A DNA stretch of 64,000 nucleotides from Danionella cerebrum (GCA_007224835.1 SRMA01025353.1:427535-491534), one strand, 5' to 3'; positions 20,754 to 55,687 are shown, counted from the stretch's first letter. Program-made: numbers and translations. The notes: generated from the letters alone by a model not told the origin.

Positions 20754-20886
20754 CGCCCCAATTAATCACGATAGTAACAATGATGATGATGATCCCGCCA
20801 ATCAATGACACGATGGAGAGGATTTTTGCATTCTTGCCAAGACGACGTGCGCCATCCACGTTTCCTTGCTGCAGACTGTTACGAGA
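20754..20886 (-). CDS. prrt2: prrt2-like (CD225/dispanin), penultimate coding exon ([44 protein letters not shown])
   Basis: Acceptor cacatttttag|TCT (phase 0) and donor GGCG|GTGAGT at 20748-20753. Near-identical to the human PRRT2 C-terminal transmembrane region [21 protein letters not shown].... A tiny last exon lies further downstream and was not located. Confidence 0.7.
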
Positions 20887-20989
20887 CTAAAAATGTGAAT
20901 GAAATCCAATGAGAATTTTATCAAAATCACAACAGAAACGTTCCAAATGACCCTGAGCAAAAATTTACATATTAATATCAAATCAATGA

Positions 20990-21650
20990 CAGCCTGACGT
21001 CTCTTGAGGTACTTGATGATGAGGTAAAGCAGGACATTCTTCTTGGAAAGAACTCTTGTAAATTCTTGCATGAACGGCACATTTGAGTTCTCCCTAGAGT
21101 GGTTCAATGCTATTGAGGTCAGAAGCCTCAGACGGTTCCTCCAGAACCTTCTTCGTTCTGGTGGTACTAGTGACACCTGGACTTGGCCTTGTGATTCAGA
21201 TCGTTGTTGTGTTGGAATCTCCAGTAACGTCCCATGCTCATCTTCCTGGCTGATGATGCACATTTTCCTCCAGAATCCTTTGGGACCATGCTGCTTTCAT
21301 CTTCAGTGAATCCGCAAAAAACATCAGTGACCCGCCTCCATGCTTCACAGTGGTGTTCCGTTCATGTGGACTCCTCTCCAAATGTAACGTTTATGGTTGT
21401 GGCCAAAAAGTAAAAGTCTCATTTCTCCGTAGATCCTATCACAGGTCTTTTGCTTTCCCCATCGTTCAGAATTCAGAAATGTCGCCGCATCATTGGTCTA
21501 TCAGGAGCCTGAAACTCAGAAACCTTTTCTGCACAAACATTGATTGAGTTGAGGATGGCTGTCTTTACCAGTCACTCAAATCCTTCTGTGTCAGTTTTTC
21601 TGCATGTTATCAGGCAAAGAATCACAAGGGTGTGCAAACTTTTGGAAAAA
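20990..21650 (-). mobile_element. Tc1-like transposon fragment in reverse orientation, inside the prrt2 intron. It terminates in caagggtgtgcaaacttttgg.
   Basis: The plus-strand ORF 21043..21309 is the antisense read of transposase and resembles the antisense ORF at 54497..54811. The gtgtgcaaa TIR-like end is at ~21630. Confidence 0.5.
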
Positions 21651-22198
21651 ATTTGGAAAGTTTCCATTCATATGTTCTTAAAAAATGGCCAAGAAATTAG
21701 AAAATGTTGCCAGGGAGTGTAAGCTAACGAGCACGACTGTACATTAATCTCTGCAGGCCACTAAGAAGATTTCAAAATAACAGACTGCACAATGACGGAA
21801 GAGGCGTGGCATTAAAACCAAATATCACCACACACACTTCTGAACATTTGGGAAAGCCAACGCTAATCTGCAGTTTGTCCAAAACTCTTCAAGCAATGTT
21901 TACAATCGAACCCTCCAAAGAGCGATCCATAATGATGAGGACCCCATTTCAAAGCTTCAGCAATTACCAAATGTATGCATCAATGTTCTGAAAATAACTC
22001 TGCACCTTTTTCGTAGAGAGTTTTCCAAGACTAAAGGCTGATCATCTCATGGCTGTACATCAACTTGGAACAACTTGCACCGGTTTTTGAATTCTGTTTT
22101 CATCCCAACTTGGGAGGAATTGCGAATTCAAGATTCTTGAATTGCATACACAAGACAAAGAAATGGAATTGAAACTTAAAGAAAAGTGGAGCACCCAC

Positions 22199-22491
22199 CA
22201 TCACAGAGAACGTCAAGCCAACGATGTTGATGGGCCAAACGGGGCAGAGGCAGGCCAGAATGGCCCATACAAGATAGTCATTGGGTTTGGCTGCATCTGC
22301 TCCGGGATCGGTGGCTGCGCTGGGCTGTCGGGAGAGGGATGGTCGGGGCGAACCCCCATGACTCACTGACCCCGAGCGACTGCTGAGCCTAGCACGACCG
22401 TTTGCATGCGAGCTGCTGGGTTTGGCATGCTGTTGACGTGGAGATGAACTGGATGGAGGGCTGTCTGTAGGAGCCGTGCATACGCCGTTAC
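22199..22491 (-). CDS. prrt2: prrt2-like, central exon: Pro/Ser-rich region plus the first CD225 transmembrane segment (KPNDYLVWAILACLCPVWPINIVGLTFSVM)
   Basis: Acceptor tctccctcatctccataacag|GT (phase 1) and donor ATG|GTGGGT (22193-22198). The segment matches the PRRT2 motif DY-ILAILSCFCPMWPVNIVAF. Confidence 0.7.
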
Positions 22492-22600
22492 CTGTTATGG
22501 AGATGAGGGAGAGATACATAAGAGACTTCTTTCCTATTCAGTCAAGGAAGGATGTCCAACAAGCCGTACAAGGTACTGAACATTCCCAAATAACTTACTT

Positions 22601-22845
22601 GTTTCCATCCTCTCATCGATGACGGCTAGGTGATCTTTGGGTGGGGCATCCAATGAAGGGGCGGAGTCTGTAGCCGCAGGAGTAGGTGCTGTGGCTGGAG
22701 CTGGATCTTGTTGCTCATTCTGTATTGGCTGGGAGGTGATGGGTGTGTTGTCCGAGTCTGTTTGTGGTTGTTGACTGGTTTCTGGCTCTGATGTTTGCTT
22801 TGCCTCCGCAGCAGCGGTAACGCTGGCATCAGTGTTTAAATCCAT
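22601..22845 (-). CDS. prrt2: prrt2-like, first coding exon (MDLNTDASVTAAAEAKQTSEPE... Pro/Ala/Thr-rich N-terminus)
   Basis: ATG at 22843-22845 (minus). The ORF-track start is TTG. Consensus donor ACAA|GTAAGT at 22595-22600 (phase 1). Confidence 0.55.
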
Positions 22846-23569
22846 TCCCAAGGTGCAGATGTCAGCGTGTGCAAGGTAAAGTCAGGCTTCTATATCTTTA
22901 TGAACTTGATGAGAACTGTTGGGCGTAAATAAATAGTTATTAGAAGAGGTCCTGTTCACGTACTGGTACAATACAGTCAAATACAGAGAAACTTGGGATA
23001 AATCTACACGTCAGCTTAGCGAATTAGCATTTCTGTTCCTATAATGGACAAAAAATAAACTATTGAACTTTTGGACACTAATGAATGTATTTTTGGGACT
23101 CATTTACAGAGAAAGCATAAGCATCCCTATTTATGTTTAGGGTAAAATTTAGTGGGCACCTTTCATGTGAGTCTATTTGAACCAGACACAAACAAGTCTT
23201 GAAAGCCCTTCTGTATTAATCCTTAGAAATCTGCGGGCTTTTTGAGGGTTTAAACAGCTTTTCTGATTTATAACGAAGATAAAAATTGTTGAGACAAAAT
23301 AAATATTAATACATCACCCAAACAAGTTAAGACAAGTTCAAAACAATGTGTAAATTAAATAAAAAAAAAGTCGAAACACAAGCTATATCACAGGTCTTTT
23401 ACTTCCAAGGGTTATCACCTCATTTCACCACTAGATGGCACCGATTTAGGGTTTGTAATATGAAATTGAAAGACGATCACACATTTTCTCACATAAAAAT
23501 TTTGCTAATTATTTACCCAATGTTGTCATCAACTCATGGTTTTCATTCACTCATTTGCTTTACCAATTT

Positions 23570-23800
23570 GGTCACAGGTGTCTACTGGTGCCTATATCGA
23601 GCGCACTACGGGCAAGAGGCGGGGGTACACACACATTTACTCCTAAGGGGGATTTACAGTATTCAATTAACCCAGTTAAGTGATTCAATTGGGATTGGAA
23701 ACCAAAGCACCTGGAGAAAACCCATGCAAACACAGCGAGGGGAGCCTCGAACCTGTAACCTTCTCACGGAGAGCCCCACAGTGCTACCCACTAATTGTGC
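23570..23800. repeat. DANA-like SINE fragment (…ggaaaccaaagcacctggagaaaacccatgcaaacacagcgagg…cgaacc…cttctcacggagag…cacagtgctacccact)
   Basis: Matches the conserved core of abundant zebrafish SINEs. It accounts for the spurious 244-aa ORF at 23346..24080. Confidence 0.6.
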
Positions 23801-24949
23801 GTTTATATCTCTAAAACGTTTACAGAAAGGACCAGTTTTGGTCCATCTTTGTACAAATCCACCATTTATAAATGAGAAAATCAAACAATCATGGTTTTCA
23901 TGGAAATGTACAATTTTTTTTCTTGTGACAGCAGCTGCCCCTGGAGACAAACGTTTCCAGATCATTCACACACCCTGGAACAATAATTCCTCTCGTTTCT
24001 TCACCAATATTCTTTTGCAACCTACAAGAACATACGCCTCGGTTCACATCTTGCAGGATGGCGTTTGTGATCTATTCTAAGTCACAAATCAATGTAGAAA
24101 CCAAGCAACTGAAGGTACAAAGCATGAGCTCCTCAGCAGAACCAAATCCAGACCAATACTGTTTACATTAATGGAGACATGCTGCAGAAACAAATGAGCA
24201 ACTCGCTCTCCAAAACAGAAAACAAGATTTAAAAGGTTGCACATTTCACTTTCTCTTCCGCAACTATTCTCTTTCTAATTGTTAATCACTTGAACGAGAA
24301 TCTTTCCAGCAACACAGCAGGTAAATAATTAAAAACTAATACCACAACAGCCAGCGTTTTAGCTCTCCGTCTTCATCCCTCTCTTCTCAGATGCTGTAAA
24401 CTGCATTTAATGATCCTCTAAAACCCAAAGAGCCTCTTTAACAAATCTTTCAAAATCAGTATTTTCACCTGCCTGATCCGATCAGACCACTGCTTTAAAC
24501 ATGTATCCTTTTAAAAGATCTGAACAGAGTTTTTTCTAAACTGACATTTTTGAGTATAAATAGTCACTGGTTCATTATATATGATGTAACATCTGAAGGA
24601 AAACAGATATCACCCATATCACTAACTGATGTCATTAAATACACTTTGCAAACTCAAGCTTAACACACATTTCAATTTAATACACGAATGCGGCTTTAGT
24701 TTAGACACAGGTACAGACTCCTAGCCCACACGAAACCCTACTTTTACCAAAAAGAAGCTAAAGATTCATTTTTACCATAAAGGAGAGAGCTGGAAGAAAG
24801 TGACACACCCTCAGCATCCAAACAGCAACTGATGCTGAAGTACCAGCAGCAAACTCACCTCAATCTGACGCAAACGGCAAAAACATTCACATGATCCCTC
24901 TCAATAATCTGGAAGTATTGATGGAGCTAAAACGGTCTTTAAAAGCTTT

Positions 24950-25340
24950 CTTGATGCTCTCAGACACGTATTCAGTGAGGAAAGTGTGTTTTATCCAGTC
25001 TGTCTCTGACTCGCACCGCGTGCGCATGCTCGGCTCGGTAATGCGTTTTTAGGAGGATTCTTTAGGAGAAAGCTCTGGATGCTGCTGGAGATGCGTCCGA
25101 ATCTCTTCAGTGATTGGAGTAACTCGGTTCACTAAGCATCTTTGTGCGGCGTGGTACACGTGGCACGTTAATCTCGTGTTCTGGAGGTTTACAATTAACC
25201 ATCACTGTCAGATCCATTCACTTTATATGACTGGAAAACGTTTAATTAGGGTTCATTCGTTTATTTTGATCGCGTGCGTCTGCTCGTGCGCGGGGATCGG
25301 AATCGTTGGCGACTGGTGCATTTTTCGCCAGAGAGGGCTA
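24950..25340. promoter_or_regulatory. CpG-containing block (…ctcgcaccgcgtgcgcatgctcggctcgg…gatcgcgtgcgtctgctcgtgcgcggggatcgg…). Candidate promoter or 5-prime UTR region, possibly for the minus-strand prrt2-like gene.
   Basis: Local CpG enrichment in otherwise AT-rich, CpG-poor DNA. No exon could be assigned. Confidence 0.25.
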
Positions 25341-26589
25341 CGGTAATCTTTAACATCCTCAAATGAGCAACAAATAGTTGTTTATGTAAACATACAAAGA
25401 ACTTCATATTTAGTGTTAAACTTTTTTACACTTTAATATTTTACCCTGATTTCTTAAAAGCAGTCCTACCGCTCGGAGTTCATCCTGGCTCTGATCCTGA
25501 GACAGAAAGTAGACTTTGCCACAAAACCAACTCTTCTTTACATACCACGATCTAGAGATTTTTCAGGAAGAGTGCACCAAATGGTTGCCATTTCTGTCCC
25601 TGGGACTTTATATGTATTCAAAAGCATTCAAGTTTCTTCTTAAACTAAGCACATGCTTACTACATGCTATTCTCATTGTAAATCTAAGTGTTAACATTTA
25701 AAATATTGATAAAAGCCACATTAAATAACAGTAAATTGTGCCCAGTGTCTGATTTATGTGCACCATGTGGTTATTAAGCATGTAGATGGCTTCTAGATAT
25801 GGCCTATAAATGCTCCGTTTCTTTTGTCATCCCAGTTCCTGGACATTGGGGCTGTGTAAAAAAAAAAAAAAAAAAGAACTGGAGCAAACTGTTCACACAA
25901 TTACATTTAATTTGGAAATCAAGATCCCAGAGTCTGGAGAACGAGCGTAGGGAGAAAAACCGTGTTGAATGGAGTCATATGTGAAATGTTATTTTCTGAG
26001 GCTGGTCCATTGGGTTTTCTGAAGTCCACCTTAAACCAAGTCTTCCGTTAGGTTCATTTAGAGTGCTTCTTGCTTACTTTTGCAGATAAGCTTTATGGAG
26101 ATATAGATTTCACAAGGACTTGGCATCTACCAATGATACAAAGTTGGTTCAATGACATCAGACCCAACTTTGCAGATGACCTGAAGGCAGCCATCAAGGA
26201 AATGTGCCTCAGGCTTATTAGAAATAACCTTACCTTGATGCAAAAGGATGTCAAACAAGGATGCTATTTGATAAACTCAACTGGATTTTGTTGATTTGAT
26301 CAACGTACTGAACATTTCAGCTCTGGTCAGAGAAAGTATAAAGAAATGACAATTTTCGAAAGCTAAATATTTATTTTTGAAAAAGCAGCAAAACATTCCA
26401 AAAGGACTTTGGGCTTCACAGAATCAATTAAAGGCACTCTAGGCAGATTTAAACATGGAACACATTTACTCAAGGTTTAAAAGAATCCTGTGTTAGTAAA
26501 CATTGCTATGGCTAATAATGCGATCAGGTGGCTTTACTCTGTGGCATATTTATCATTTCTGCATATGAACCATTTTTTCTATAGTTTGT

Positions 26590-26715
26590 TTATTCATCTT
26601 TGTCCTTGCCCTGCAGCGACCCCAGGAGGCCGTTGGCAGTAGTGAAGAGATTGATGGGAGAAGTGCCGTCAGTAATAAGAGTAGACTTCAGACCCAAAGA
26701 CTGCAGGAGCTTCAC
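26590..26715 (-). CDS. mvp: mvp exon 16, last coding exon ([24 protein letters not shown]...KDKDE*)
   Basis: Acceptor ttttattgtcttccag|GTG. Stop TAA at 26590-26592. Homologous to the MVP C-terminus [25 protein letters not shown]. Confidence 0.85.
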
Positions 26716-26803
26716 CTGGAAGACAATAAAACGGTACTGTTAACATCTACAGTTCCACAAAAACCAAACGCTAGGTTTTTTTAAGGAGACAATGATCCCT
26801 CAC

Positions 26804-26992
26804 CTGTAGCTCTGGTCCAGCTCTCGCCATTTCCTTCAGAGTTTCAGTACCCAGGTTCTCCATCATGAGCTTGAAGCGCTGACTCTCAATCTCTGCTAAC
26901 TTCTGCTGCTTCTCGATCTCCAGCTGGTCCATTTGTTTCTTATAGCTCAACTCTTGCTCACGTGCTTTGCACAGGCGAGCCAGCTCAGAGTC
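26804..26992 (-). CDS. mvp: mvp exon 15
   Basis: Acceptor catgttag|GAC. Donor CTACAG|GTGAGG. Encodes [63 protein letters not shown]. Confidence 0.8.
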
Positions 26993-27066
26993 CTAACATG
27001 GAGAAATCCGCGTTTACAATCCACCAATTCAACCTGTATAATTGATAAAAGCGTATAAAGACATAC

Positions 27067-27193
27067 CGCCTCAATCTTCTGAGCATCTGCTTTGAGTTTG
27101 GCTTCCTCAACAGCTGCCTCTCCCTGAATACGAGCTGCCTCGGCTCTAGATAGCGCCTCTGCCTTTGCAGCTCCTGTGCTCTCCACTGCAGCA
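27067..27193 (-). CDS. mvp: mvp exon 14 (…[42 protein letters not shown])
   Basis: Acceptor ctttcag|TGC. Donor GAGGCG|GTATGT. Matches the MVP cap-helix region. Confidence 0.8.
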
Positions 27194-27270
27194 CTGAAAG
27201 ACAGACAGAGTGTTTACTGACCACGAGCGTGTCGGAGTTTAGTATAGCACTGGTCATTTTCGTTTATTCA

Positions 27271-27388
27271 CCTCTTAGCCTCCAGCTCCAGCAGTTCTTT
27301 TCTTGCCTTCTCAGCCTCTGCCTGGTCTGTGATCTTCTGCCTTTCCAGGCGACCCCGAGCTTCCTGCTCCAGACGCTCTGCTTCATGT
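27271..27388 (-). CDS. mvp: mvp exon 13 ([39 protein letters not shown])
   Basis: Acceptor cttcctgcag|ACA. Donor AAGAG|GTGAAT (phase 2). Near-identical to human [40 protein letters not shown]. Confidence 0.85.
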
Positions 27389-28056
27389 CTGCAGGAAGAA
27401 AAGTCTTGGCCATAGCTCACGCTTATCAAAGAGGATGCTAACAAGTCTGATGCTAACTCAAATACAGTCAATAAACTAGCCACAACAGCAAGATAATAAG
27501 CGCTAGTTGGGACTTGAAAAACAAAGACAATATAGCTACACCTTACGTGTACAATTCCTGACAAAAAGTCTTGTCGCTAATCTGTTTTAAAGAAACACCT
27601 GCTATTAACCTCACGTGAAAGGTTAAAACCCTTCCAAATTATGTTTAATAAACTGAAATAAAACTAGTTTCACTGAAAAAAAGATTTAGCAATTAATCAA
27701 GACAATTTTGCCTACACAGAAATTGATCAGATTTAGTGCAAATAAAAAAATAGCAAATTAGTTAGTGGTGCTGTGAGATCCAACTTCAATATCTTGTATG
27801 ACTTCCATGAAAGATTGCAACAGATAGCAAAGAAAGCAGTCTTGCATGCCCCCCAAGTTCATCAGTAATCTTGGGTTGCGTCTTCTATGCTTCCTCTTTC
27901 ATCCTACCCCAGGCATGCTCAATAATCTTCATGTCTGGTGACTGGGCTGGCCAATTCTGGCTGTGGCCCAGTGGAAATTTACAAAAGAACTACATTTGGC
28001 CTAATATCTAATCTAAGGACCTCTAAGATTAGAAACCTTAATACTTGGATCGTACC

Positions 28057-28277
28057 GTGCAGTAGCCTCTTGGGAATTGGTGGTGATCTCAATGGCAAGC
28101 TGAACACTCTTCTGCAGGGCGTCCCGGGTGCGCTGGTCCACCGGCTCCACAGACTGAATGTCCACACTGCTGATGATCAACCCGTTCTGACCAAAGCGCA
28201 GACTGGACCGCACCGCGAGCTTCTCATCGAACCCAAAAACAGCTGAACAGATGATCCTATTGGAGTTCTGAGAGGAA
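28057..28277 (-). CDS. mvp: mvp exon 12 ([71 protein letters not shown])
   Basis: Acceptor cctctcag|AAC. Donor GCACG|GTACGA (phase 2). Strong identity to the MVP shoulder domain. Confidence 0.85.
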
Positions 28278-28479
28278 GAAAGTCAAAAATAAAATCAGAC
28301 TGATTTATGTATGCAGATTTCCTACAAAGATTTCCTTGTTGACTTGTAAAATCTGTGCAAAAGCATTTGAACCCCAGGCTCTAGAAGGCGTAAAATATTC
28401 ACCTTCAACTTTTAATGGAAAAGGCAATGAAATTATCTATTAAACATCAGAGAAATGTATATTTGATTATTTTAATAAT

Positions 28480-28760
28480 AGTTACAACTTAATTTTTTAC
28501 GACATCACTACCAGCTCCCTAGCAACCATTCTGTTTACCCTAGCAACCTAAATTTTCGGAATTCTATCTCAGCTTTGGAAAATAATAGAAACATGGGGGT
28601 TGGTTTATTTCACTCATAGGGACATTTGGAACATTATATTGAGCCAATGACCACTCTATAGCAACCAGGCTGTTTACCATAGCAACAAACTTGGCATATC
28701 ACTATCTCAGCTTAGGAAAATCATAAGGACATGGGGTTTGGTTTATTTTACTCCCATTTA
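28480..28760. repeat. Dimeric SINE-like repeat (…ccctagcaacc…tctcagctttggaaaataatagaaacatggggg ttggtttatttcactcat…) in an mvp intron
   Basis: Two ~130-bp subunits in tandem. The same family recurs at 29790-30110 and 49440-49640. Confidence 0.6.
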
Positions 28761-28876
28761 AAATTGGCTTTTAAACTGCATTTAAAAACCAACATGAAAG
28801 TTTATGTGAAAACTTTAACTTTTGTCTGCTAACAATGATTAGTTGTTGCTAAAAGCACACATCTGGTGCGTTGAAT

Positions 28877-29023
28877 ACCTTGTGGAAGTCGTCGAACTGC
28901 ACTGAAGCAACAGCTCCTCTGATTCTGGAAGCGATGGCTTTACAAGCGTCTCCCACAAAATCCGGCACAGAGAACAATGCTGCCGCCTGGGCCACATCAG
29001 CTGGCTGTTTAATGTCAAAGTGC
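28877..29023 (-). CDS. mvp: mvp exon 11 (W)[48 protein letters not shown]
   Basis: Acceptor cggcatcag|GCA completes the Trp codon begun in exon 10. Donor CACAAG|GTATTC. Confidence 0.85.
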
Positions 29024-29110
29024 CTGATGCCGAGTCATAAAAAGAGATAGTTAGCTGTTAGTTTCCATTTTACAACTTTTTACCGAGACTTTAGATCCTT
29101 AAAAACATAC

Positions 29111-29308
29111 CAGTTATAAGAGAGCTGCAGCTGCAGACGGGCGTGGTCAGCCGTCTCGATGGTGATGATGTCAGTGCAGAAGTCTGGGCCGAGCAGAAGA
29201 CAGATAGTTTTGATGACATTAGGACGTTTAGGCTTGTCTCCGGAGAGGGAGAGAACCGTAAACTGCTCATCGGGTCCCAGCATCACCATTTCAGGTCCAA
29301 ACATCACC
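29111..29308 (-). CDS. mvp: mvp exon 10 ([66 protein letters not shown])
   Basis: Acceptor tgttatcaag|GG. Donor AACTG|GTATGT (phase 2). Confidence 0.85.
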
Positions 29309-29394
29309 CTTGATAACAGTAAGAAGATAACGAGGAAGACGATTTATAGTGACAACACCTCAGTTCTGATATGAGGAGTGAATGAAATGTACCT

Positions 29395-29638
29395 GGCCTT
29401 CTTTTCTCTGTAGTCATACACCTGCACAGCTGCATTGTGGGGAATACGATAGGCCACCACTCTAGTTTTATCTCGCTCGCCTTGTGCGAAGCCCCTTCCT
29501 CGCTCAGAGCGGTCAGCCAGTGGGTCACGGGATTGAGCCAGTAGTGTCTCAACATTGGCGGGAAGCTCTTTCTCCCACAATTCCTCATCCTGCGTCAGCA
29601 TGTAGGTCCGGCCAATCACAGCACGCACCTAAGAAGCA
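29395..29638 (-). CDS. mvp: mvp exon 9 ([79 protein letters not shown])
   Basis: Acceptor cttcttag|GTG. Donor GCCAG|GTACAT. Confidence 0.85.
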
Positions 29639-33207: not shown

Positions 33208-33339
33208 CAGTCACTCTCGGGGCACCATTGCGGTCCAGACCCTCTTTCCGTGCCCGGAGACGAATGGCCTGATTCTCTTGGATCACCGTAGCCTTAATGA
33301 CTTCCAGTACTGCCACTTCCTTCCTGGGAATGTACGTTC
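33208..33339 (-). CDS. mvp: mvp exon 4 ((G)[44 protein letters not shown])
   Basis: Acceptor tttttcaacag|GA. Donor ACTG|GTGCGT (phase 1). Confidence 0.8.
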
Positions 33340-33588
33340 CTGTTGAAAAATAAAAACACTTCATGTGAGATCTGCCATTTAATGTTTTGATTTTGACATG
33401 TTTAAAACATGTAGGTAACAACTGCATTTCTGCATGCCACAACCCAACCACATCATTCAGTGGGCAAAACTGTATGAGGAACCACTTTAATTTCCTTATT
33501 TTCTTTAGCACTTCCTCAATTCCAACTGAAATTTCTTCATGCAGGTAAACAAACAGGCTTCAAGCTAACGCTAATGCTGCAGTGGTAC

Positions 33589-33712
33589 CTGGTCCCTCAA
33601 AGAGCCACTCATCTCCAGCAACTTTCTTCTCTCCTGCAGCATCCTCGAAGTCCAGAAGGGCCTGCAGACGCAGAGCTGTGTCGGGATACACAATCTGCAG
33701 TGGCGTCACATC
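33589..33712 (-). CDS. mvp: mvp exon 3 ([42 protein letters not shown])
   Basis: Acceptor ccatggtag|GAT. Donor CCAG|GTACCA. Confidence 0.8.
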
Positions 33713-33837
33713 CTACCATGGATACCAACAGAGATGAACACAAGCGTTAATGACCATGTATGGCAAGCTTGTTCACTTATCGAACATGACAGAACTAGGC
33801 AATAACATCTGGAGGTGCATGACGCTTGCAACTTCTA

Positions 33838-34033
33838 CCTTCTGTATCTCTTCACCAGGGTACAGAGGGAACGGATCCTGGGTCAGCCGGATCTCCAGGT
33901 CAGCGTGTCGGAGCTTGGCTTGTCCTGATGCATCAAACTGTACGCGGGACTCATCATCACGGGCGACGGGGTTGACCACAACACAGTAGTGCCGCGGTGG
34001 CACCATGATCATCCGCACAGGAGCAAACAGAAC
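33838..34033 (-). CDS. mvp: mvp exon 2 ((R)[65 protein letters not shown])
   Basis: Acceptor cccctacag|GG. Donor CAGAAG|GTAGAA. Confidence 0.85.
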
Positions 34034-35643
34034 CCTGTAGGGGAAATGAAAAATGAAGTTCAGTGAAGGAAGTGAGTAAACGCTGTAACAGCGCACATAT
34101 GAAACCTGGGGGAACAAGGCCGGGATTGAAAAAGAGTATGAAAGAATCCAGATTTCAAAAAAAGAGGGTGTAATCGATGGTCCACGGGTGACTAAAATAG
34201 AAAGACATGCACGCACATACAAAAGCAGAACACCCCAGCCATCTTCTGCCTCATTTAAATATGCTAATGAGCATAACTGTATGGGAAACAATGCACCTTT
34301 TCAGAAACTGAATTAACTGAGCTTTTGATAGTATTTTTTTGGCCTTAACGCAACAAAGAAGAAAAAAAATTGGAGAGTTTGTCTGATGCGGTCGATGTAA
34401 TGAAAAAGGTAGAATTCACAACGAGAAACGCCACACTCGTTTTAGTCACAAGAGCAGTTTGTCAGGGGAATGTGACAAATTAAAAGTCCCTTAAACCTTC
34501 TGTTAGAAGCTAAATTGGACGAGTGCTAGAGCGCTTGTGTTATGTTTAATTGCTTTTTCTATCAGGTTCAAGACCCCGTTTCTTTTATTTCCTGCTCTTT
34601 CACTTTTATTTCAACTTCAGATCCTTTTATTGTCCAATAATACATTAATCTTACCATTTTTATCGTCATAATCAGACATTTTTTCTTTTCCTGTGCATTC
34701 ACACAACAAACTTTGCCGGAAAAAGCTAATCTTCATATTAGAAAACACACATAAAATGTGATGGAAAACAAAATTGTGAAACAAAAATTCAACGGTCCAC
34801 AACATTAAAATGAACAGCATGAATAGATTAGAAACACAGAAGATACCGTAAACTTGCCAAAAATCGACAACAATTGTGAACGGAAAAGGGAAATTATTTT
34901 ATCAAATTTTTAAAAAACAAAAATCCCATAACCCATTCTTTTTAATTGTGACTCCAATATGTATTTCCTGCTCCTTCACTTTCAAATTCATTCAATATCC
35001 GATAATAAATTGATAAATGCAACAATTAATCTTGCTGTTACAATATTTACCATCATGATCATACCCTGTAACTGCGTCATTCACAGATCCTGGATCAGTG
35101 CTAAAGCGACTAAAATGAACATAGGCTTATGCTTCACACAATCAACTATAGGCGTCGCCAAAGAATAAACCAAAAGCAATTAAGAGTACGCCAGACATGA
35201 AGCTTGTGTGGAGAAACGCACATTCCCACGTTCTACTCACTATTAGTAAATCTGACCTTGAGCGTGGAAGCTGATATACGGCAGATATTATGTTGATACA
35301 TGTGTCAGGGATGATTTTACAGCTTCTACGGTTTCTCAAGCTTCTTCACAAGGTGCTTATTGTGATATTTCTGTATCCTATTATGTTGTTACACTCCTAT
35401 TCATGAATTGATCTCTTCAGCTGTTGTTTGGTTTCTAGGCAACGGAGAAATGCAAACACCGTATTACTTTGTTCCCCAGCAACACTGAACATTGGCACAC
35501 CTTTTTTGTTTGCATATGAGCACCTGGCATCCTAAACACCCTCGCAGTTTGGTTGCATACACCGAATCAATCTTGACAGATTACATCTTAAAGCAAAACC
35601 TGTTTCTCGAAGGCGATTTCACAATGCAGTTACTCAGGCTCAC

Positions 35644-35771
35644 CTCTCATTGTCCTGACGAATGTATGTCAGAGGGCCGATCTCCACCCGCGCAATGTTC
35701 GTGTTCTGATCTAAGACATGGATGTAGTGGTGGGGGGGGATCCTGATGATTGAGCCTCCTAGATCTGCTTC
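35644..35771 (-). CDS. mvp: mvp first coding exon (M(M)[42 protein letters not shown])
   Basis: ATG at 35769-35771 (a second in-frame ATG lies immediately upstream at 35772-35774). Donor GAGAG|GTGAGC at 35638-35643. Homologous to the MVP N-terminus [32 protein letters not shown]. Confidence 0.8.
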
Positions 35772-36516
35772 CATCATTCTTACCACTGGCATTCCACTCA
35801 CAGTCTGAAATAGAAACATTGATTATTTTTTTTACAAAGCCGTGTTGCATAGGACTATTTCAGGATCATGGTAAAATAGAGACGTCCTGCTCACAAAGTG
35901 ATTACAAAATAAATTCTGCGACTTACAAAGCTGTCTGCATGCACTTTAAAACCAATAATGTAGAAGTCAGCTACTTTCACGAGCGAACACACCTCAGTTT
36001 CTTATCGATTTTACGACACCGCTGCTACGACTGGTCTGTGGGAGCTTGAGGCAGAGGTTATAACTGATAGATAACATGTGATTAGTGTTTCAGGTTTAAT
36101 TTAGTTTGCAGGTTGCAACATCTGCCTCGTTTTGAGCTACTCAAGGCTTTCATCACTCCCTGAATGACTCTTGGGTAATCTGTGAAACATTTAAAGCAAT
36201 TTTCTAAACACTCTATTCCTATACATTGATTTGATAGTGCCAAAATATGTACCACTGTGTTATCATATTGGTTTCATATACTTAACGAAGGTTTTATTTA
36301 AAAAAGGGAACTATTAAAGAAGTAGGTGAGTAAAATAAATCTAAATATACATTTTGTTAACTTTGTGCATGTCTACTTTAGAAATGCACTGCTGTAAAAT
36401 GTGAACAGTTTGAATAGTTCAAATGCCATAAGAAAGTGTTGGGTGCTTTTGGAAAACAAAGCATTGTTGTACTTGATTTGGCAAAAAAACAAACAAGAAA
36501 AGTAAGTTCTATGCAG

Positions 36517-36517
<1 letters not shown>

Positions 36518-36567
<50 letters not shown>

Positions 36568-36572
36568 CATAA
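36518..36572. repeat. (CAAT)n microsatellite, about 13 units
   Basis: Direct reading: caatcaatcaat.... Confidence 0.95.
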
Positions 36573-38269
36573 ATGACTCAATCAGGTCATCTGCTGTGAT
36601 GTCAGTTGGGAGCTGGCCAAGCTCAATCTATGGCAAGCATTTTTAACATTTCATACACTTTTGACTTCCAATTACAGATATCTACAATTCTAATTTGACT
36701 AGTTACACTCGCAGTAGAGAAATCTACAATGTGATTGTGACTAGACATAACATGCATTGTAGTTATTACCAATGTATATATTTTTTAAGAATTTTTTCCA
36801 TTCATCCTTCCACTTCCACTAGTTGCATCTAATATGGATTATATTTATTTGTTTATTACTAATCCAATGTCTGCATTTTGAATTATGGCTAGGTACAACT
36901 CGGTTGGAAATATCTCAACATTTAGATATATTACATACAATTTGACTCGTCAAATAACAGTTGTGAATGTCTGTGTTTGAGTCAAAACATGAGTTCCTAC
37001 TGGTGCGAAAAAGGGATAAAATGTTAAAACGGCGTGCCATAATCGACCTATGGGTGAATGCGGAAAGGACAGATTACAACATAAACCAATATTGTATATT
37101 TTCTGTTTATAACATTGTCACTTGTACCTTCACTTGTGCAGTAATAATAAATTAAGAGATAGATTAAATAAAGCGTATTTACTTATGAACTTGTGATGTT
37201 ATAATGCAGATATTATTACTGCATCGCAATAGAGCACTACAAACATTATAATTTGTGTTCTTATTCATTTAAACCCTATTCTGCATTGCTTTTCTTAAAG
37301 AGCAAGTCATCGGATCTTATGACTCATCCGTAGCAGCAGTAAAACATTATTTCCTGGTATGGTGACAGCTGTGTCTCTAAGCCTTAAAGTTAACACTGAC
37401 ATAAAATATTTCCACATAAAGTAAACTTACATTTCAGAAGAATGGGTGTTAAACTGGCAGTGCGAGGTTGGCTCTGTCAGTTTCTGAAGCTGTAGAATAT
37501 GAAAACTGCGCAGTGGTTTATAACCAGAGAGGGGTGTGTCGTTCTGGTGAAGCGCATAGTTTCCCGGAGAAGGAGTCACTGGGTCACGTGACTTTCTGTA
37601 TCCAATCATATTTCTAAACATGTTAATTTAATTAAGGCCGTACATCTTTTTTAAGCTGTTGTTACTAAAGTTTTAAACCCAATTTTACAGAGTAAAATTG
37701 TTATATCTTGTCAAAAATGAATCCCATTGAAAATATATTTTACATTTAAATTGGTTTTATTTTACATGATAAATATATTTTTAAATTGTCTGGTCTATTG
37801 TGTGCTATTCCAGTAATGATATTGCTTTTGGGTGTGAAATATTTGCAATGCAAACCCTTTGTAAATGTCTAAATGCCAAAGATAACCTTAAATGCAAAAA
37901 GTCATAGAATCAAAAAGTCAATAATACCTAGAAAGAAAAAAAGATAAGTTGTTTTATTACAGACAAAAAAAACAATTATTCAAGTCTTTATTTCTGGAAA
38001 CTTTGATGTTTTTAGCTCTCCAATTCCTCATGGATGTGAACTATCACTGACACCTTCCTCAAGAAGGGTAAGCCACAAAGTTAATCGCTAAAGAGTGTTG
38101 TGTTTTAGCATATTCTACAGCTGAGTTCCATTTCCATCCCTTAGCCCTTTCACTTTCCTCCTCACCTCTGTTTTGCTAAGGGGTGTCCCAATTCTTTTTT
38201 GAAGAAATAGAAAGGGGTGAGAAAAATGGGTGTGTATTTTTATTAGAACTCCTCATGACATTGGGTGCA

Positions 38270-38345
38270 ATCAGATACATGTCTTAACATTTACATTTAT
38301 GCATTTAGCAGACGCTTTTATCCTAAGCGACTTACAGTTCAGGAG
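38270..38345. repeat. Zebrafish-type interspersed repeat fragment (acatttacatttatgcatttagcagacgcttttatcctaagcgacttacagt)
   Basis: Motif typical of a very abundant Danio repeat family. Confidence 0.5.
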
Positions 38346-38599
38346 TAAACATGCGCTGTTTCTCACAAGGTCGGATAAATCATAAGACATACACATATAA
38401 GACGTTTGAGCTGATACAGAATTTTTTTTTATATTTTTGGAAGGTCTTCCAAAGAAATCTAGATCAGAAAGTTACTACATCAATGTCATTTTATTGTTAA
38501 GCGAAAAAGAAAAGGTGTGGACTACCATCAAAAGGGACAACCGCCGGATTCAACCAATCTAGTAAATAATTTGGAGAGCTTCACATATTTTCATGGAAA

Positions 38600-38837
38600 A
38601 TTTTAATTCTAATTAAATCACGCAAAACCGCAGTTTGCTAAAGGGGTTCACACTGTATAGCAAACTACCCAATCAAAATCCTCGTTACTCATGCGAGCGT
38701 GTTTCTGGTACGTACACTCTCCAATCAGAGAAAGCGATGTTGAAGGTTCTACGCATGCTCAGACGGCATCCGCCGCTCATGTGTTTCTTACGCACGCAGG
38801 CTCCGGTGGAGGTCACTGTGAACTAACTGCGCACTGG
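38600..38837 (+). promoter_or_regulatory. phb: phb promoter and non-coding first exon. CCAAT boxes at ~38659 and ~38722. The leader ends at donor GG|GTAAGT (intron starts at 38838).
   Basis: ccaatca motifs, a CpG-containing segment (ctcatgcgagcgtgtttctggtacgtacactctccaatcagagaaagcg...), and a consensus donor 400 bp upstream of the ATG exon. Confidence 0.5.
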
Positions 38838-39247
38838 GTAAGTGCTTACATTGTTTTACGCTAGCGGTTTTTTTACAATTAGTTTTAGGAATGATTTATA
38901 TCTTACATTTTCATCTTTTTAAGTTCAACGTGTCCGTAGGATCGATGTGTTTGGGAAGAATGCACGGTTACTCGCCAGTTGCATCATTAGCCTGTAGCTT
39001 GCTAAACGATTAAAGTACAACTGTTCACAAGCACGTTTATATTTGTTATGTTTATAATTGCATTATTCAATATCCCGCTAGTGTTTCGCGTGGTTTTGTT
39101 TAGATATAGGAAATCAGGTTAGCACGTTTCATTCATGTCAGGGTCAAGGCTGGCAGCTCGAAGTGGATTCATTTACATTTTTCAGGAATATTTACATGCA
39201 TAACGATCCATAATTAATTTCTTTTCCAGGACTGTCGCATTATTTCC

Positions 39248-39332
39248 ATGGCGAAGCTCTTCGAGTCCATTGGGAAGTTAGGATTGGCCTTGGCCGTTGG
39301 AGGAGGTGTAGTGAACTCTGCTCTGTACAATG
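39248..39332 (+). CDS. phb: phb coding exon 1 ([28 protein letters not shown]-)
   Basis: The exon starts at acceptor cttttccag|G (39230). ATG at 39248. Donor AATG|GTGAGT. Identical in layout to the human prohibitin N-terminus. Confidence 0.9.
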
Positions 39333-39515
39333 GTGAGTTTAGTGGTCCTCATCTGCCTGAAATCTGCTTATTAAATCGTTGGTGTAAAGTATTGACGATG
39401 TAAATTATGACTCCCATTGATATGGCTCTTATTAGTTCACATAAGTAATTCCATTCCAGCGCTTCCATAAGAAAAAAATCGGTTTAAGTTCCTAAAAAAA
39501 GCGTTTCCTCCGCAG

Positions 39516-39677
39516 TGGATGCAGGACATCGGGCGGTGATCTTCGACAGGTTTCGAGGAGTTCAAGATGATGTTGTAGGAGAGGGCACACACTTTTTGAT
39601 TCCTTGGGTACAGAAGCCAATCATCTTTGACTGCAGGTCCCGTCCTCGCAATGTGCCTGTCATAACTGGAAGCAAAG
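39516..39677 (+). CDS. phb: phb coding exon 2 ([54 protein letters not shown])
   Basis: Acceptor tcctccgcag|TG. Donor AAAG|GTACTA. Confidence 0.9.
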
Positions 39678-39794
39678 GTACTAAGACTGTTCTGTTTATT
39701 TTACTGTGGTGCATTAAAAAAAATGATTTTCTGCTCTACCAAAGAAATCTCCAGACTTATTGTTTGGGATAATGGTTTGTTTCTGTCCTCTCAG

Positions 39795-39936
39795 ATTTGC
39801 AGAATGTTAACATCACGCTGAGGATTCTGTTCAGGCCAGTTGCTGGGCAGCTGCCGAGGATTTTTACCAGCATTGGCGAGGATTATGATGAGAGGGTTCT
39901 ACCCTCCATCACAACCGAGGTCCTAAAGGCTGTAGT
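39795..39936 (+). CDS. phb: phb coding exon 3 ([48 protein letters not shown])
   Basis: Acceptor gtcctctcag|AT. Donor GTG|GTGAGT. Confidence 0.9.
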
Positions 39937-40546
39937 GGTGAGTGCCAAAAAAAGACTTGACCGTGTTTAAGCTGCACTTTAAACTCTGTTGTCTCTGCTG
40001 AAAGACTTTGGGCTTCATAATGTTGCATTTTGCGTTTTTTTTTTTTTTTTAATGAGTGCGTTTTGCATACACACATCACACAAAAACATTACATTAAGTT
40101 TTCCTTTAACTCTTAGAAGTCTCTGCACGATTTCAAAATTTTATTTTTGGTTCTAGACAAACATTTGAAGAGTTATGACTTAATTTGCAAGGAAGTTCAA
40201 ATGAAATGTGACTATGCGCAATTTGTCTTTCAGTTTCATTTTAAATCAGTGCCATCTACTGGTGAAAAGGAGGGATAACCCTTGGAAAGTACAAGACCTG
40301 TGATATGGCTTGTGTTTTCCAAAGTTAGGGCACCAGAAAATTGTACAGCAAAACTGTTTAAAATGGCCCGAATTTCTAAGGGTTAAAGCATTTAACCTTA
40401 ACACACTACAAAAAGGGAAAAAAATAACTTTTCTCCTTGTATATTATTTCTCTATATGTGTGTATTAGTAAAATAAATAATTTCCCATTTATCTAAGGCC
40501 TACCGTCTTATGTGTAATGGTTTTTGTGTCTTGTGTCTTGCCGCAG

Positions 40547-40663
40547 GCTCGGTTTGACGCTGGCGAGCTGATCACTCAGAGAGAGCTGGTGTCCAGACAG
40601 GTCAGCGAAGATCTGACCGAAAGAGCCTCCACCTTTGGCCTCATTTTAGATGACGTGTCTTTG
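40547..40663 (+). CDS. phb: phb coding exon 4 ([39 protein letters not shown])
   Basis: Acceptor tcttgccgcag|GCT. Donor TTG|GTAAAC. Confidence 0.9.
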
Positions 40664-40746
40664 GTAAACGCCTTTTTCTTGTCTGTACCACTGTGTTTTC
40701 CTCTCCTGCGTCTCACCACATTTCTCCCCTGCACAGACACATCTGA

Positions 40747-40832
40747 CATTTGGCAAGGAGTTCACAGAGGCTGTTGAGATGAAACAGGTGGCACAGCAGG
40801 AGGCTGAGAGGGCCAGGTTTGTGGTGGAGAAG
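40747..40832 (+). CDS. phb: phb coding exon 5 ([32 protein letters not shown])
   Basis: Acceptor ctcccctgcacag|ACA. Donor AAG|GTACGG. Confidence 0.9.
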
Positions 40833-41976
40833 GTACGGGTGGCATGTTAATTAAACATTAAACATGTAAAAGGCCAACATTTTGATGGATAAACATGGAA
40901 GATTTAAAATAATTTTAGTTCATTATTATTTTAATTCTTTTTCTTTTCAGAAATAGATGGAGGAAGGTTTATCTTTTGTGTTTACATTACAGGTGGACCG
41001 ATACACTTTTTTTCCAAAATTTGACCATCTTGGCACATACACAGATTTTAACTGCTTTGCAAAGCAAGAATGGATTGAAATGTGCAAAATTAACATCTTA
41101 ATAAACATATAAGGAAAATCAGTGCCGTTTTCAATTGTAATGTATGTGTAAAGCGTAGTGCAGCGAATAATATAGTTTAACAAAGAAACAAAATTAGAAA
41201 TTTGTCACTTGTAACTTTAACTAAGAATGTAAATGCCTCTCACAACATTCAAGATTATGTTGAACCCTGTGAAATGAAGCATCATGATCATCATTTTAAT
41301 GCCCTTTTTATATCGTTTTTATATTTGACCTTATAAAAAAGGAGAAATATCGAAAAAAAGAAGGTATTGAATATATATATATAATTTTTAAGGAGGTATT
41401 CAAAATAAATTTATATTTTAACATTAGCATGGTTGTTTCTCAAAAAACATCAAATTCTAAACAAAAAGTATTCTAAAAAGCAGAACAATAACTCAAATAT
41501 CTTATTTATTGTTCACCCTAACGCGTGCCTCACACGCTCTTCTTCATTTTTGCGTCAGTATGCATATAGATGTACAGGGTCGCCACCTGGTGGTCACTTA
41601 TGTAAAAATCCACCACAAACGACGCAATGTTGCGCTGCGAACAGAATCTTGTTCAAGATCCCGGTGTTGCTCCAGTTTATTTCATGAAGCTTGAAACAAT
41701 AGACAGCTAGAATGTTAATAACGACACAAGCATTTTTGTGTTTTTTTTTTCGTTGTGATTTTTTAATTACAACACTCACTTGGAATAAACAAATATTTAA
41801 AATTGCAAAACACCATTTTACTGTCTATTAAAAATGAAAATACATACATTTTCACATTGCTTTGCACTCACTTTAACAGAAAAACAAGAATATTGGGTCG
41901 AATTTTGATTTGTCATCAAACGTGACATTTGTGGAGAAAACGGCAGCTGTAGTTTATCTGATGATTGTGTTCTCAG

Positions 41977-42189
41977 GCGGAGCAGCAGAAGCAGGCAGCC
42001 ATCATCTCCGCAGCTGGAGACTCTCAGGCTGCTCTGTTGATCGCTAACTCTCTGGCAGAAGCTGGCGATGGCCTGGTGGAGCTGAGAAAGCTGGAGGCCG
42101 CCGAGGACATCGCCTTCCAGCTCAGCCGCTCACGCAACGTCACCTACCTCCCGTCCGGCCAGGGGACGCTGCTGCAGCTCCCGCAGTGA
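41977..42189 (+). CDS. phb: phb coding exon 6 ([70 protein letters not shown])
   Basis: Acceptor gtgttctcag|GCG. Stop TGA at 42187-42189. AATAAA at 42259-42264. Confidence 0.9.

Positions 42190-52332: not shown

Positions 52333-52563
<231 letters not shown>

Positions 52564-55141: not shown

Positions 55142-55687
<546 letters not shown>

What the first reader, a model, noticed from the sequence alone, without database searches (positions are those of the whole stretch)
20754..42189. Gene order joins a PRRT2–MVP block (human 16p11.2) to a PHB–ZNF652–PHOSPHO1 block (human 17q21.3), with NATD1 (human 17p11.2) appended
prrt2-like and mvp are adjacent and co-oriented here, as PRRT2 and MVP are in the human 16p11.2 interval. 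No PAGR1-like gene is visible between them. Immediately beyond mvp, in head-to-head orientation, lies phb, followed by znf652 and phospho1 in the same relative order as on human chromosome 17q21. natd1 follows. The mvp/phb head-to-head junction (35771 to ~38600) is therefore a conserved-synteny breakpoint between two ancestral linkage groups.
Basis: established knowledge. Interest (0 to 1): 0.5.

Follow-up and report, generated by a model that had tools for sequence, protein, structure and literature searches.

The report
Ordinary fish gene-order block; junction carp-specific

Summary
The window is from Danionella cerebrum and holds prrt2(-), mvp(-), phb(+), znf652(+), phospho1(+), natd1(+) in that order. 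No pagr1 lies between prrt2 and mvp. Orthology holds:
- The dispanin gene falls in the PRRT2 clade (93/100 bootstrap), not TRARG1.
- MVP and PHB1 are unambiguous against solved structures.
- PHOSPHO1 beats PHOSPHO2.
- NATD1 is an exact database match.
- ZNF652 is the weakest call; its human reference sequence was recalled from memory.

1. The phb<-|->mvp->prrt2 arrangement recurs in grass carp and loach. In a catfish a dynein-light-chain gene lies about 9 kb upstream of mvp. In a wrasse phb has a different upstream neighbour and prrt2 lies 5.45 Mb away on the same chromosome. In milkfish and tilapia no phb lies within 10 kb of mvp. The junction therefore looks like a cypriniform rearrangement.
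2. Published maps put both 16p11.2 and 17q orthologues on zebrafish chromosomes 3 and 12, so the two regions were linked before the teleost genome duplication.
3. In fish mvp lies 5' of prrt2. In mammals PRRT2's 3' end faces PAGR1 and MVP. The pair is therefore not collinear with human.

This is routine comparative genomics of low interest.

The parts
20198..22845 (-). prrt2 (proline-rich transmembrane protein 2, dispanin/CD225 family), four coding exons: 22845-22599, 22491-22199, 20886-20754, 20214-20198; 229 aa. Intron 2 holds Tc1/mariner-like remnants.
   Evidence: Pfam CD225, E=5e-10. Best hits are teleost PRRT2, and the exons are 100% identical to D. cerebrum DNTS_017837. The NJ tree and source names place it with marmot, Dromiciops, Sphenodon and Polypterus PRRT2, apart from TRARG1. 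Bootstrap for the PRRT2 clade is 93/100. Splice sites checked; last exon found.
22846..26589 (.). mvp-prrt2 intergenic interval (3.7 kb). It holds no pagr1-like gene, only repeat-like ORFs.
   Evidence: tblastn with PAGR1 P0268 gives no hit below E=0.89 anywhere in the window. Pfam on all six frames gives nothing. No gene is called here in five other otocephalan fishes.
26590..35774 (-). mvp (major vault protein), 16 coding exons, 851 aa. It is co-oriented with prrt2 and lies 5' of it.
   Evidence: Spliced model. PDB major vault protein scores 1292 bits over residues 8-843. Pfam Vault_3 and Vault_4. Teleost MVPs are 84-93% identical.
35775..39247 (.). Head-to-head mvp|phb junction, measured ATG to ATG (3.47 kb). 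It is AT-rich. The phb 5'UTR exon ends at 38839. Blocks 37404-37600 and 38669-38854 are conserved with grass carp.
   Evidence: Sequence. CpG and GC profile. blastn against L004. The same head-to-head pair occurs in grass carp (ATG-to-ATG about 3.4 kb) and in loach (annotated gene ends 745 bp apart). No tRNA, Rfam family or large tandem repeat.
39248..42189 (+). phb (prohibitin 1), six coding exons: 39248-39332, 39516-39677, 39795-39937, 40547-40663, 40737-40832, 41977-42189; 271 aa.
   Evidence: PDB Prohibitin 1 scores 534 bits against 265 bits for Prohibitin-2. Teleost and human PHB1 are 92-98% identical. Model verified.
50228..55687 (+). znf652-like C2H2 zinc-finger gene, five coding exons: 50228-51223, 52106-52253, 52370-52485, 53312-53456, 55167-55687; 641 aa. 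It has no BTB domain.
   Evidence: Pfam zf-C2H2 only. It is collinear with a human ZNF652 sequence recalled from memory, 94-100% identical in the finger exons, with matching N- and C-terminal tails. Model. A homologue follows phb in Xyrichtys.
59351..60172 (+). phospho1 (phosphoethanolamine/phosphocholine phosphatase 1), single coding exon, 273 aa.
   Evidence: Pfam Put_Phosphatase, E=7e-81. Exact match to D. cerebrum TRY95626.1, which UniRef names 'Phosphatase phospho1'. It scores 253 bits and 51% identity to human PHOSPHO1, against 196 bits and 39% to PHOSPHO2. Both human sequences were verified as exact database entries.
61331..63579 (+). natd1, three coding exons: 61331-61427, 62202-62320, 63463-63579; 110 aa.
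   Evidence: Model. Exact match to D. cerebrum TRY95622.1, which UniRef names 'Protein NATD1'. Pfam Acetyltransf_CG, E=5e-22.

Best explanation
The window is a segment of a Danionella cerebrum contig. I infer that it is orthologous to part of zebrafish chromosome 3, because the zebrafish mvp and prrt2 locus fetched here lies on a 67.7-Mb record whose chromosome number was not confirmed.

The window holds two small blocks of conserved gene order. One is an mvp->prrt2 pair, whose human orthologues are at 16p11.2. The other is a phb->znf652->phospho1 trio, collinear with mammalian 17q21.33, followed by natd1.

The two blocks abut head-to-head at the mvp and phb 5' ends. The most likely cause is an intrachromosomal rearrangement (inversion or transposition) in the stem lineage of Cypriniformes. 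It joined two regions that already lay on the same chromosome in earlier teleosts, since 16p11.2-type and 17q-type genes were linked before the teleost genome duplication.

Within the 16p11.2-type pair there was at least one further local rearrangement relative to mammals. mvp now lies 5' of prrt2, and pagr1 lies elsewhere in the genome.

Shown here: the gene identities, order and orientation, and the presence or absence of the junction in the sampled species. Inferred: the direction, timing and mechanism of the rearrangements.
For: Gene identities.

Species: NATD1 and PHOSPHO1 are exact matches to D. cerebrum proteins. The D. cerebrum PRRT2 and MVP models are 100% identical to the window within the cleanly aligned exons.

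Junction present (phb<-|->mvp->prrt2): grass carp L004 and the loach Misgurnus L009.

Junction absent:
- Catfish L008 has a dynein-light-chain-family gene about 9 kb upstream of mvp and no phb within 10 kb.
- Milkfish L005 and tilapia L006 have no phb within 10 kb of mvp.
- Labrid L002 has a DTC/PARP14-like gene head-to-head with phb, followed by a znf652-like gene.
- In the labrid, prrt2 is on the same chromosome as phb, 5.45 Mb away.

The mvp->prrt2 adjacency, with nothing between the two genes, holds in zebrafish, grass carp, loach, milkfish and catfish.

Linkage before the teleost duplication: zebrafish 16p11.2 homologues cluster on chromosomes 3 and 12 (PMC3484866). Hsa17q genes SOX9, AATK and CYTH1 have co-orthologues on chromosomes 3 and 12 (PMC2954789). 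LG3 carries the HoxB/17q21 block (PMC1310530).

Mammalian orders: KIF22-MAZ-PRRT2-PAGR1-MVP-CDIPT (PMC7945342). The fused squirrel model is PRRT2(1-342)+PAGR1(342-591). PHOSPHO1-ZNF652-PHB-NGFR in horse.

pagr1 exists in zebrafish, where c16orf53 was cloned from cDNA (PMC3484866).
Against: - Sampling is thin: one species per non-cypriniform lineage, with only 10-kb flanks.
- For milkfish and tilapia I know only that phb is not within 10 kb of mvp.
- No gar, bowfin, bichir or tetrapod locus could be fetched. The polarity of the change therefore rests on parsimony among teleosts.
- The zebrafish mvp-phb adjacency itself was not examined, because L001 covers only the 3' end of mvp.
- The orientation of human MVP (co-oriented with PRRT2 and PAGR1) and of PHB, ZNF652 and PHOSPHO1 comes from memory, not from a tool.
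- ZNF652 orthology rests on a human sequence recalled from memory that I could not verify.
Confidence: 0.75

Rival explanations
1. First reader's view. The mvp/phb junction is an old, conserved breakpoint where two ancestral linkage groups (16p11.2-like and 17q21-like) were fused. It should then be shared by teleosts generally, and perhaps by gar.
For: The junction is shared by three cypriniform genomes spanning Cobitoidei and Cyprinoidei (this window), so it is not recent. PRRT2 (16p11.2) and TRARG1 (17p13.3, location from memory) are sister paralogues. This fits 16p11.2 and chromosome 17 being distinct paralogous regions after the two early vertebrate genome duplications.
Against: The junction is absent in catfish, where another gene lies about 9 kb upstream of mvp. 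It is absent in a labrid, where phb has another upstream neighbour and prrt2 is 5.45 Mb away. No phb lies within 10 kb of mvp in milkfish or tilapia. Both zebrafish duplicate chromosomes 3 and 12 carry genes of both human regions, so the fusion, wherever its point was, predates the duplication and is not marked by this junction.
Confidence: 0.12
2. The juxtaposition is an assembly or scaffolding artefact, a chimeric contig.
For: None specific. The junction is AT-rich and has a TCAA microsatellite at 36518-36584.
Against: The same order, the same orientation and a similar ATG-to-ATG distance (about 3.4 kb) occur in the independent grass carp assembly. Non-coding blocks inside the junction are conserved with grass carp. 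The loach shows the same arrangement.
Confidence: 0.01
3. The dispanin gene is not prrt2 but trarg1 (TUSC5) or another CD225 member, as many NCBI names for its teleost orthologues suggest. The left block would then not be 16p11.2-like.
For: NCBI names many of the closest teleost hits 'trafficking regulator of GLUT4 1' or 'tumor suppressor candidate 5 homolog'. The C-terminal domains of PRRT2 and TRARG1 are similar: the window protein is 63% identical to human PRRT2 and 55% to human TRARG1 over 76 columns.
Against: The window protein groups with tetrapod and Polypterus PRRT2 with 93/100 bootstrap. A separate TRARG1 group holds bird, skink and mammal proteins, and the bowfin protein named TRARG1 also falls outside the PRRT2 clade. 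The human reference sequences were verified as exact database entries. The gene sits next to mvp in six fishes.
Confidence: 0.03

Closest known systems
Human 16p11.2 BP4-BP5 interval, gene order KIF22-MAZ-PRRT2-PAGR1-MVP-CDIPT (PMC7945342)
   Same: PRRT2 and MVP orthologues are close neighbours on the same strand.
   Different: In the fish mvp is 5' of prrt2. In mammals PRRT2's 3' end faces PAGR1 and then MVP. pagr1 is absent from the locus. cdipt, maz and kif22 are not in the window. A second teleost PRRT2 paralogue keeps the kif22 flank.
Mammalian 17q21.33 block PHOSPHO1-ZNF652-PHB-NGFR (horse ECA11 list, PMC6617995)
   Same: phb, znf652 and phospho1 are consecutive, in the same relative order, and all co-oriented in the fish. 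phb->znf652 also holds in a labrid.
   Different: The flanks differ. mvp stands where NGFR would be, and natd1 (human 17p11.2, location from memory) stands where ABI3 and GNGT2 would be.
Published zebrafish chromosome 3 / chromosome 12 correspondence with human chromosomes 16 and 17 (PMC3484866; PMC2954789; PMC1310530)
   Same: The window is a fine-scale example of what these papers report. 16p11.2 and 17q orthologues share the same pair of duplicated teleost chromosomes, and gene order is scrambled relative to human.
   Different: Those papers do not describe the mvp|phb junction or its restriction to Cypriniformes. Blaker-Lee et al. did not list mvp and prrt2 as a syntenic pair.
Orthologous loci in other Cypriniformes (grass carp CM034327.1 at 24.82-24.85 Mb; loach CM050773.2 at 31.03-31.07 Mb)
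   Same: Identical arrangement, phb<-|->mvp->prrt2.
   Different: Only intron and intergenic sizes differ. Danionella is the most compact.

Membership tests
PRRT2 orthology group (dispanin subfamily with TRARG1 and TMEM233) | CD225/dispanin domain at the C-terminus | tested here: met
   Pfam PF04505, E=5e-10.
PRRT2 orthology group (dispanin subfamily with TRARG1 and TMEM233) | Groups with tetrapod PRRT2 to the exclusion of TRARG1 and other dispanins | tested here: met
   NJ tree of 102 sequences. Clade names from sources. Bootstrap 93/100 for teleost + tetrapod + bichir PRRT2. Relationships inside the clade, including the two teleost paralogue groups, are unresolved.
Major vault protein | Full-length collinear match: vault repeats, shoulder, cap helix | tested here: met
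   PDB MVP scores 1292 bits over residues 8-843 of 851. Pfam Vault_3 and Vault_4.
Prohibitin 1 (versus prohibitin 2) | Higher similarity to PHB1 than to PHB2 over the full length | tested here: met
   534 bits to Prohibitin 1 against 265 bits to Prohibitin-2.
ZNF652 (versus the paralogue ZBTB47/ZNF651) | Collinear zinc-finger array plus ZNF652-type N- and C-terminal tails, and no BTB domain | tested here: inconclusive
   No BTB domain in the first exon. It is 94-100% identical in the finger exons, with collinear tails, to a human ZNF652 sequence recalled from memory. That reference could not be verified, and the window model is not in the protein collection. Position next to phb agrees with mammals.
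PHOSPHO1 (versus PHOSPHO2) | Closer to PHOSPHO1 than to PHOSPHO2 | tested here: met
   253 bits and 51% identity against 196 bits and 39%. Both human sequences were confirmed as exact database entries, and the window ORF equals the UniRef entry 'Phosphatase phospho1' of D. cerebrum.
NATD1 | Acetyltransf_CG (GNAT-like) domain and membership of a named NATD1 cluster | tested here: met
   Pfam PF14542, E=5e-22. Exact match to 'Protein NATD1' of D. cerebrum, in a cluster with other teleost NATD1.
Collinear conserved block with human 16p11.2 (PRRT2-PAGR1-MVP) | Same relative order and orientation of the genes, with PAGR1 between them | tested here: not met
   In fish the order is 5'-mvp->prrt2-3' with no pagr1. 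In mammals PRRT2->PAGR1 precedes MVP. Only the adjacency is conserved.
Collinear conserved block with human 17q21.33 (PHB-ZNF652-PHOSPHO1) | Same three genes consecutive in the same order | tested here: met
   Window models against the horse ECA11 gene list. The strand of the human genes was not tested here.
Ancestral (teleost-wide or older) synteny breakpoint | The same junction present in lineages outside Cypriniformes | tested here: not met
   Absent in catfish and a labrid. Not within 10 kb in milkfish or tilapia. Gar, bowfin and bichir were not testable (one search failed; look-up cap reached).

The most novel reading that the evidence does not exclude
The mvp-linked prrt2 of Danionella, zebrafish and other teleosts (the only copy found here in cyprinids, and presumably the copy used as the zebrafish PRRT2 disease model) may not be the positional orthologue of human PRRT2. 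Under this reading it descends from an older local duplicate that lay downstream of MVP. The second teleost paralogue would then be the true positional orthologue. That paralogue keeps the human-like kif22->prrt2 flank, as shown by the fused KIF22+PRRT2 catfish model. This would explain why mvp lies 5' of prrt2 in fish. My tree cannot exclude it. Support for the two teleost groups being sisters is only 21/100, and support for tetrapods grouping with the kif22-linked copy is 7/100.
Probability: 0.1. Interest if true: 0.3.

Novelty: already known. Interest (0 to 1): 0.1.

Why it matters
It matters little. The result gives correct gene models and names for a stretch of the Danionella cerebrum genome whose GenBank proteins are labelled 'hypothetical'. 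At least two of those models (mvp and prrt2) are mis-spliced. The result also shows that many NCBI 'TRARG1' names for teleost genes should read PRRT2. It dates one small rearrangement (mvp|phb) to the cypriniform stem.

For users of zebrafish or Danionella as 16p11.2 or PRRT2 models, the practical points are these:
- The fish locus is not collinear with the human interval.
- pagr1 is elsewhere in the genome.
- Some teleosts carry a second PRRT2-clade paralogue.
- mvp and phb may share a short divergent promoter region. This is speculative.

Tried and rejected
- It had no record for P0001 (Danionella PRRT2), P0330 (Labeo PHB) or P0126 (Polypterus PRRT2). No non-teleost outgroup locus could therefore be fetched before the 12-look-up cap.
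- The Conger 'prohibitin 1-like' locus has C1q and Tectonin neighbours. It may be the other duplicate, so I did not use it for polarity.
- Six-frame DNA references with stop codons are rejected by the Pfam tool.
- The PDB holds no PHOSPHO1 relative.
- Exact look-ups of my PHB and ZNF652 models found nothing. The deposited models presumably differ.
- The supplementary table with zebrafish coordinates from Blaker-Lee et al. is not held.
- The Rfam, tRNA and tandem-repeat scans found nothing relevant at the junction.
- The first bootstrap run, on 102 sequences, timed out. I repeated it on 43 sequences.
- Literature searches for a published phb/znf652/phospho1 fish synteny, or for an explicit Hsa16 + Hsa17 map of zebrafish LG3, gave only indirect support.
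- I considered a bidirectional-promoter reading of the junction and did not pursue it. There are no expression or transcription-start data, and only the loach annotation shows the gene ends close together (745 bp).

Full report
**What is in the window**

The window is AT-rich vertebrate DNA (GC 0.33-0.47) with short exons and small introns. ORF listings and guided spliced models give six genes. All introns are GT-AG except one apparent GC donor in mvp.
- prrt2, minus strand, CDS 22845 to 20198, four exons, 229 aa.
- mvp, minus strand, 35774 to 26590, 16 coding exons, 851 aa.
- phb, plus strand, 39248-42189, six coding exons.
- znf652, plus strand, 50228-55687, five coding exons.
- phospho1, plus strand, 59351-60172, one exon.
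- natd1, plus strand, 61331-63579, three exons.

The NATD1 model and the PHOSPHO1 ORF are exact matches to Danionella cerebrum proteins TRY95622.1 and TRY95626.1, which lie on a 523,711-bp contig. The deposited D. cerebrum PRRT2 and MVP proteins are 100% identical to the window within the cleanly aligned exons. Elsewhere they differ through a retained intron and skipped exons. The window is therefore D. cerebrum.

**Orthology**

- MVP: 1292 bits to solved mammalian major vault proteins over almost the full length.
- PHB: 534 bits to Prohibitin 1 against 265 bits to Prohibitin-2.
- PHOSPHO1: Pfam Put_Phosphatase, E=7e-81. It scores 253 bits to human PHOSPHO1 against 196 bits to PHOSPHO2.
- NATD1: Acetyltransf_CG domain and a named NATD1 cluster.
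- The human PRRT2, TRARG1, PHB1, MVP, NATD1, PHOSPHO1 and PHOSPHO2 sequences that I used as guides were recalled from memory. Each was then confirmed as an exact entry in the protein collection.
- ZNF652 is the weakest assignment. It has no BTB domain. It is 94-100% identical in the finger exons, with collinear tails, to a recalled human ZNF652 sequence that I could not verify. Its position after phb matches mammals.

The dispanin gene needed a real test, because NCBI names its teleost orthologues inconsistently as PRRT2, TRARG1 or TUSC5.
- I searched 1.8 billion cluster representatives and built an NJ tree.
- I looked up source names for clade members.
- The window protein sits with marmot, Dromiciops, Sphenodon and Polypterus PRRT2. 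Bird, skink and mammal TRARG1 form a separate group, and the bowfin protein named TRARG1 also falls outside the PRRT2 clade.
- Bootstrap support for the PRRT2 clade is 93/100.

**The 16p11.2-like pair**

prrt2 and mvp are adjacent and on the same strand, 3.7 kb apart. Nothing PAGR1-like lies between them or anywhere else in the window. Zebrafish does have a pagr1 (c16orf53) gene (PMC3484866), so the gene is located elsewhere rather than lost.

The mvp->prrt2 arrangement, with no gene called between the two, recurs in five other fishes:
- zebrafish
- grass carp
- loach
- milkfish
- catfish

In a labrid no mvp lies within 10 kb of prrt2, and in tilapia no prrt2 lies within 10 kb of mvp.

The pair is not collinear with human. 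In fish mvp is 5' of prrt2. The human order is KIF22-MAZ-PRRT2-PAGR1-MVP-CDIPT (PMC7945342). A fused squirrel gene model, PRRT2(1-342)+PAGR1(342-591), shows that PRRT2's 3' end points toward PAGR1 and MVP. Inverting the whole pair cannot produce this difference. It needs a transposition, two inversions, or duplication followed by loss.

A second PRRT2-clade paralogue exists in catfishes and elopomorphs. In Silurus it is fused to KIF22 in a gene model, with KIF22 at the N-terminus and PRRT2 at 657-871. That copy keeps the human-like left flank.

**The 17q21-like block**

phb, znf652 and phospho1 are consecutive and co-oriented. Their order is the one in the horse ECA11 list...ABI3, PHOSPHO1, ZNF652, (NXPH3), PHB, NGFR (PMC6617995). 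In the labrid Xyrichtys a znf652 homologue also follows phb. natd1 follows phospho1 after 1.2 kb. Its human location, 17p11.2, is from memory.

**The junction**

The ATG-to-ATG distance between mvp and phb is 3.47 kb. The interval is AT-rich and has no tRNA, Rfam family or notable repeat. Two blocks in it are conserved with grass carp, one of which covers the phb 5'UTR exon and promoter.

The same phb<-|->mvp->prrt2 arrangement is present in grass carp and in the loach Misgurnus. In the loach the annotated gene ends are only 745 bp apart. This rules out an assembly artefact and places the junction at or before the cypriniform ancestor.

Outside Cypriniformes it was not found:
- In the catfish Tachysurus a dynein-light-chain-family gene lies about 9 kb upstream of mvp.
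- Milkfish and tilapia have no phb within 10 kb of mvp.
- In Xyrichtys the head-to-head neighbour of phb is a DTC/PARP14-like gene. prrt2 lies on the same chromosome, 5.45 Mb away.

Parsimony therefore favours a single gain in the cypriniform stem.

**Were these two ancestral linkage groups?**

At the level relevant to teleosts, no.
- Blaker-Lee et al. report that zebrafish 16p11.2 homologues cluster on chromosomes 3 and 12, with gene order not conserved (PMC3484866).
- Hsa17q genes SOX9, AATK and CYTH1 have co-orthologues on the same two chromosomes (PMC2954789).
- LG3 carries the HoxB/17q21 block (PMC1310530).

Both duplicate chromosomes carry both kinds of genes, so the linkage predates the teleost duplication. 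The mvp|phb junction is then a later intrachromosomal reshuffle, not the fusion point.

16p11.2 and chromosome 17 are probably paralogous regions from the two early vertebrate duplications. PRRT2 and TRARG1 are one such paralogue pair. They would therefore have been separate earlier still. I could not test gar or tetrapod arrangements with the tools available.

**Verdict**

Gene identities, adjacency and the 17q21 collinearity hold. The 'ancestral breakpoint' reading and the implied collinearity of prrt2 and mvp with human do not.
- This kind of scrambled conserved synteny between zebrafish chromosome 3 and human chromosomes 16 and 17 is long published. The gene order is visible in public cyprinid annotations.
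- Interest is low.

Noticed in passing
window 792-14372, minus strand: A tandem set of zinc-finger genes. Three ORFs (2462-2890, 11392-11766, 14031-14372) share an N-terminal coiled-coil-like motif ('L..ERLMAAV.EI...EYEEE..R...EN..L'). They are combined with zf-BED exons (792-1502, 8321-8665) or C2H2 exons (10134-10634, 13174-13986). They are not MAZ, the zinc-finger gene next to PRRT2 in human. They look like a lineage-specific fish zinc-finger cluster.
   Followed up: partly
window ~21100-21450 (prrt2 intron 2) and ~54470-54810 (znf652 intron 4): Tc1/mariner-like transposase remnants. ORFs at both places share '...SPNV(T/A)FMVVAK', so two copies of one degraded transposon family lie in opposite orientation.
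   Followed up: no
related proteins P0137, P0299, P0305 (catfishes); P0045, P0052 (elopomorphs): Some teleosts have a second PRRT2-clade paralogue. In Silurus it is fused in a gene model to KIF22 (KIF22 at the N-terminus, PRRT2 at 657-871). It thus keeps the human-like kif22->prrt2 flank, whereas the copy in the window is linked to mvp.
   Followed up: partly
hits (for example P0006, P0013, P0044, P0049): NCBI names many teleost orthologues of this gene 'trafficking regulator of GLUT4 1' or 'tumor suppressor candidate 5 homolog', although they fall in the PRRT2 clade (93/100 bootstrap). This looks like systematic misnaming.
   Followed up: yes
window 26590-35774 and 20198-22845, against D. cerebrum DNTS_017843 and DNTS_017837: The deposited D. 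cerebrum MVP model retains intronic sequence ('[14 protein letters not shown]...') and skips parts of exons. The PRRT2 model skips the first half of the third coding exon. All proteins of this contig seen here are labelled 'hypothetical' in GenBank.
   Followed up: yes
window 30389/30388, minus strand (mvp): The mvp intron after '...DIKTGK' appears to use a GC donor (AAG|GCAAGA). No GT donor nearby keeps the conserved K|VRAVIG junction.
   Followed up: partly
window 37404-37600 and 38669-38854: Two non-coding blocks in the mvp-phb intergenic region are conserved with grass carp (69% and 73% identity). The second covers the phb 5'UTR exon and promoter. The first may be an untranslated first exon or promoter of mvp.
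   Followed up: no
L008 1-731 (Tachysurus); L002 3884-8061 (Xyrichtys); L003 (Conger): Neighbours differ between lineages. In catfish a dynein-light-chain-family gene lies about 9 kb upstream of mvp. In a labrid a 1106-aa DTC/PARP14-RRM/NID-domain gene lies head-to-head with phb. The Conger 'prohibitin 1-like' gene sits next to C1q and Tectonin genes and may be a second phb copy.
   Followed up: no
contig lengths: In Sinocyclocheilus grahami, natd1 and prrt2 are reported on scaffolds of identical length (3,818,123 bp), so they are probably on the same scaffold. In the clupeiform Coilia grayii, natd1 (39.8-Mb record) and prrt2 (29.2-Mb record) are on different chromosomes. The link between natd1 and this block may also be lineage-specific.
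   Followed up: no
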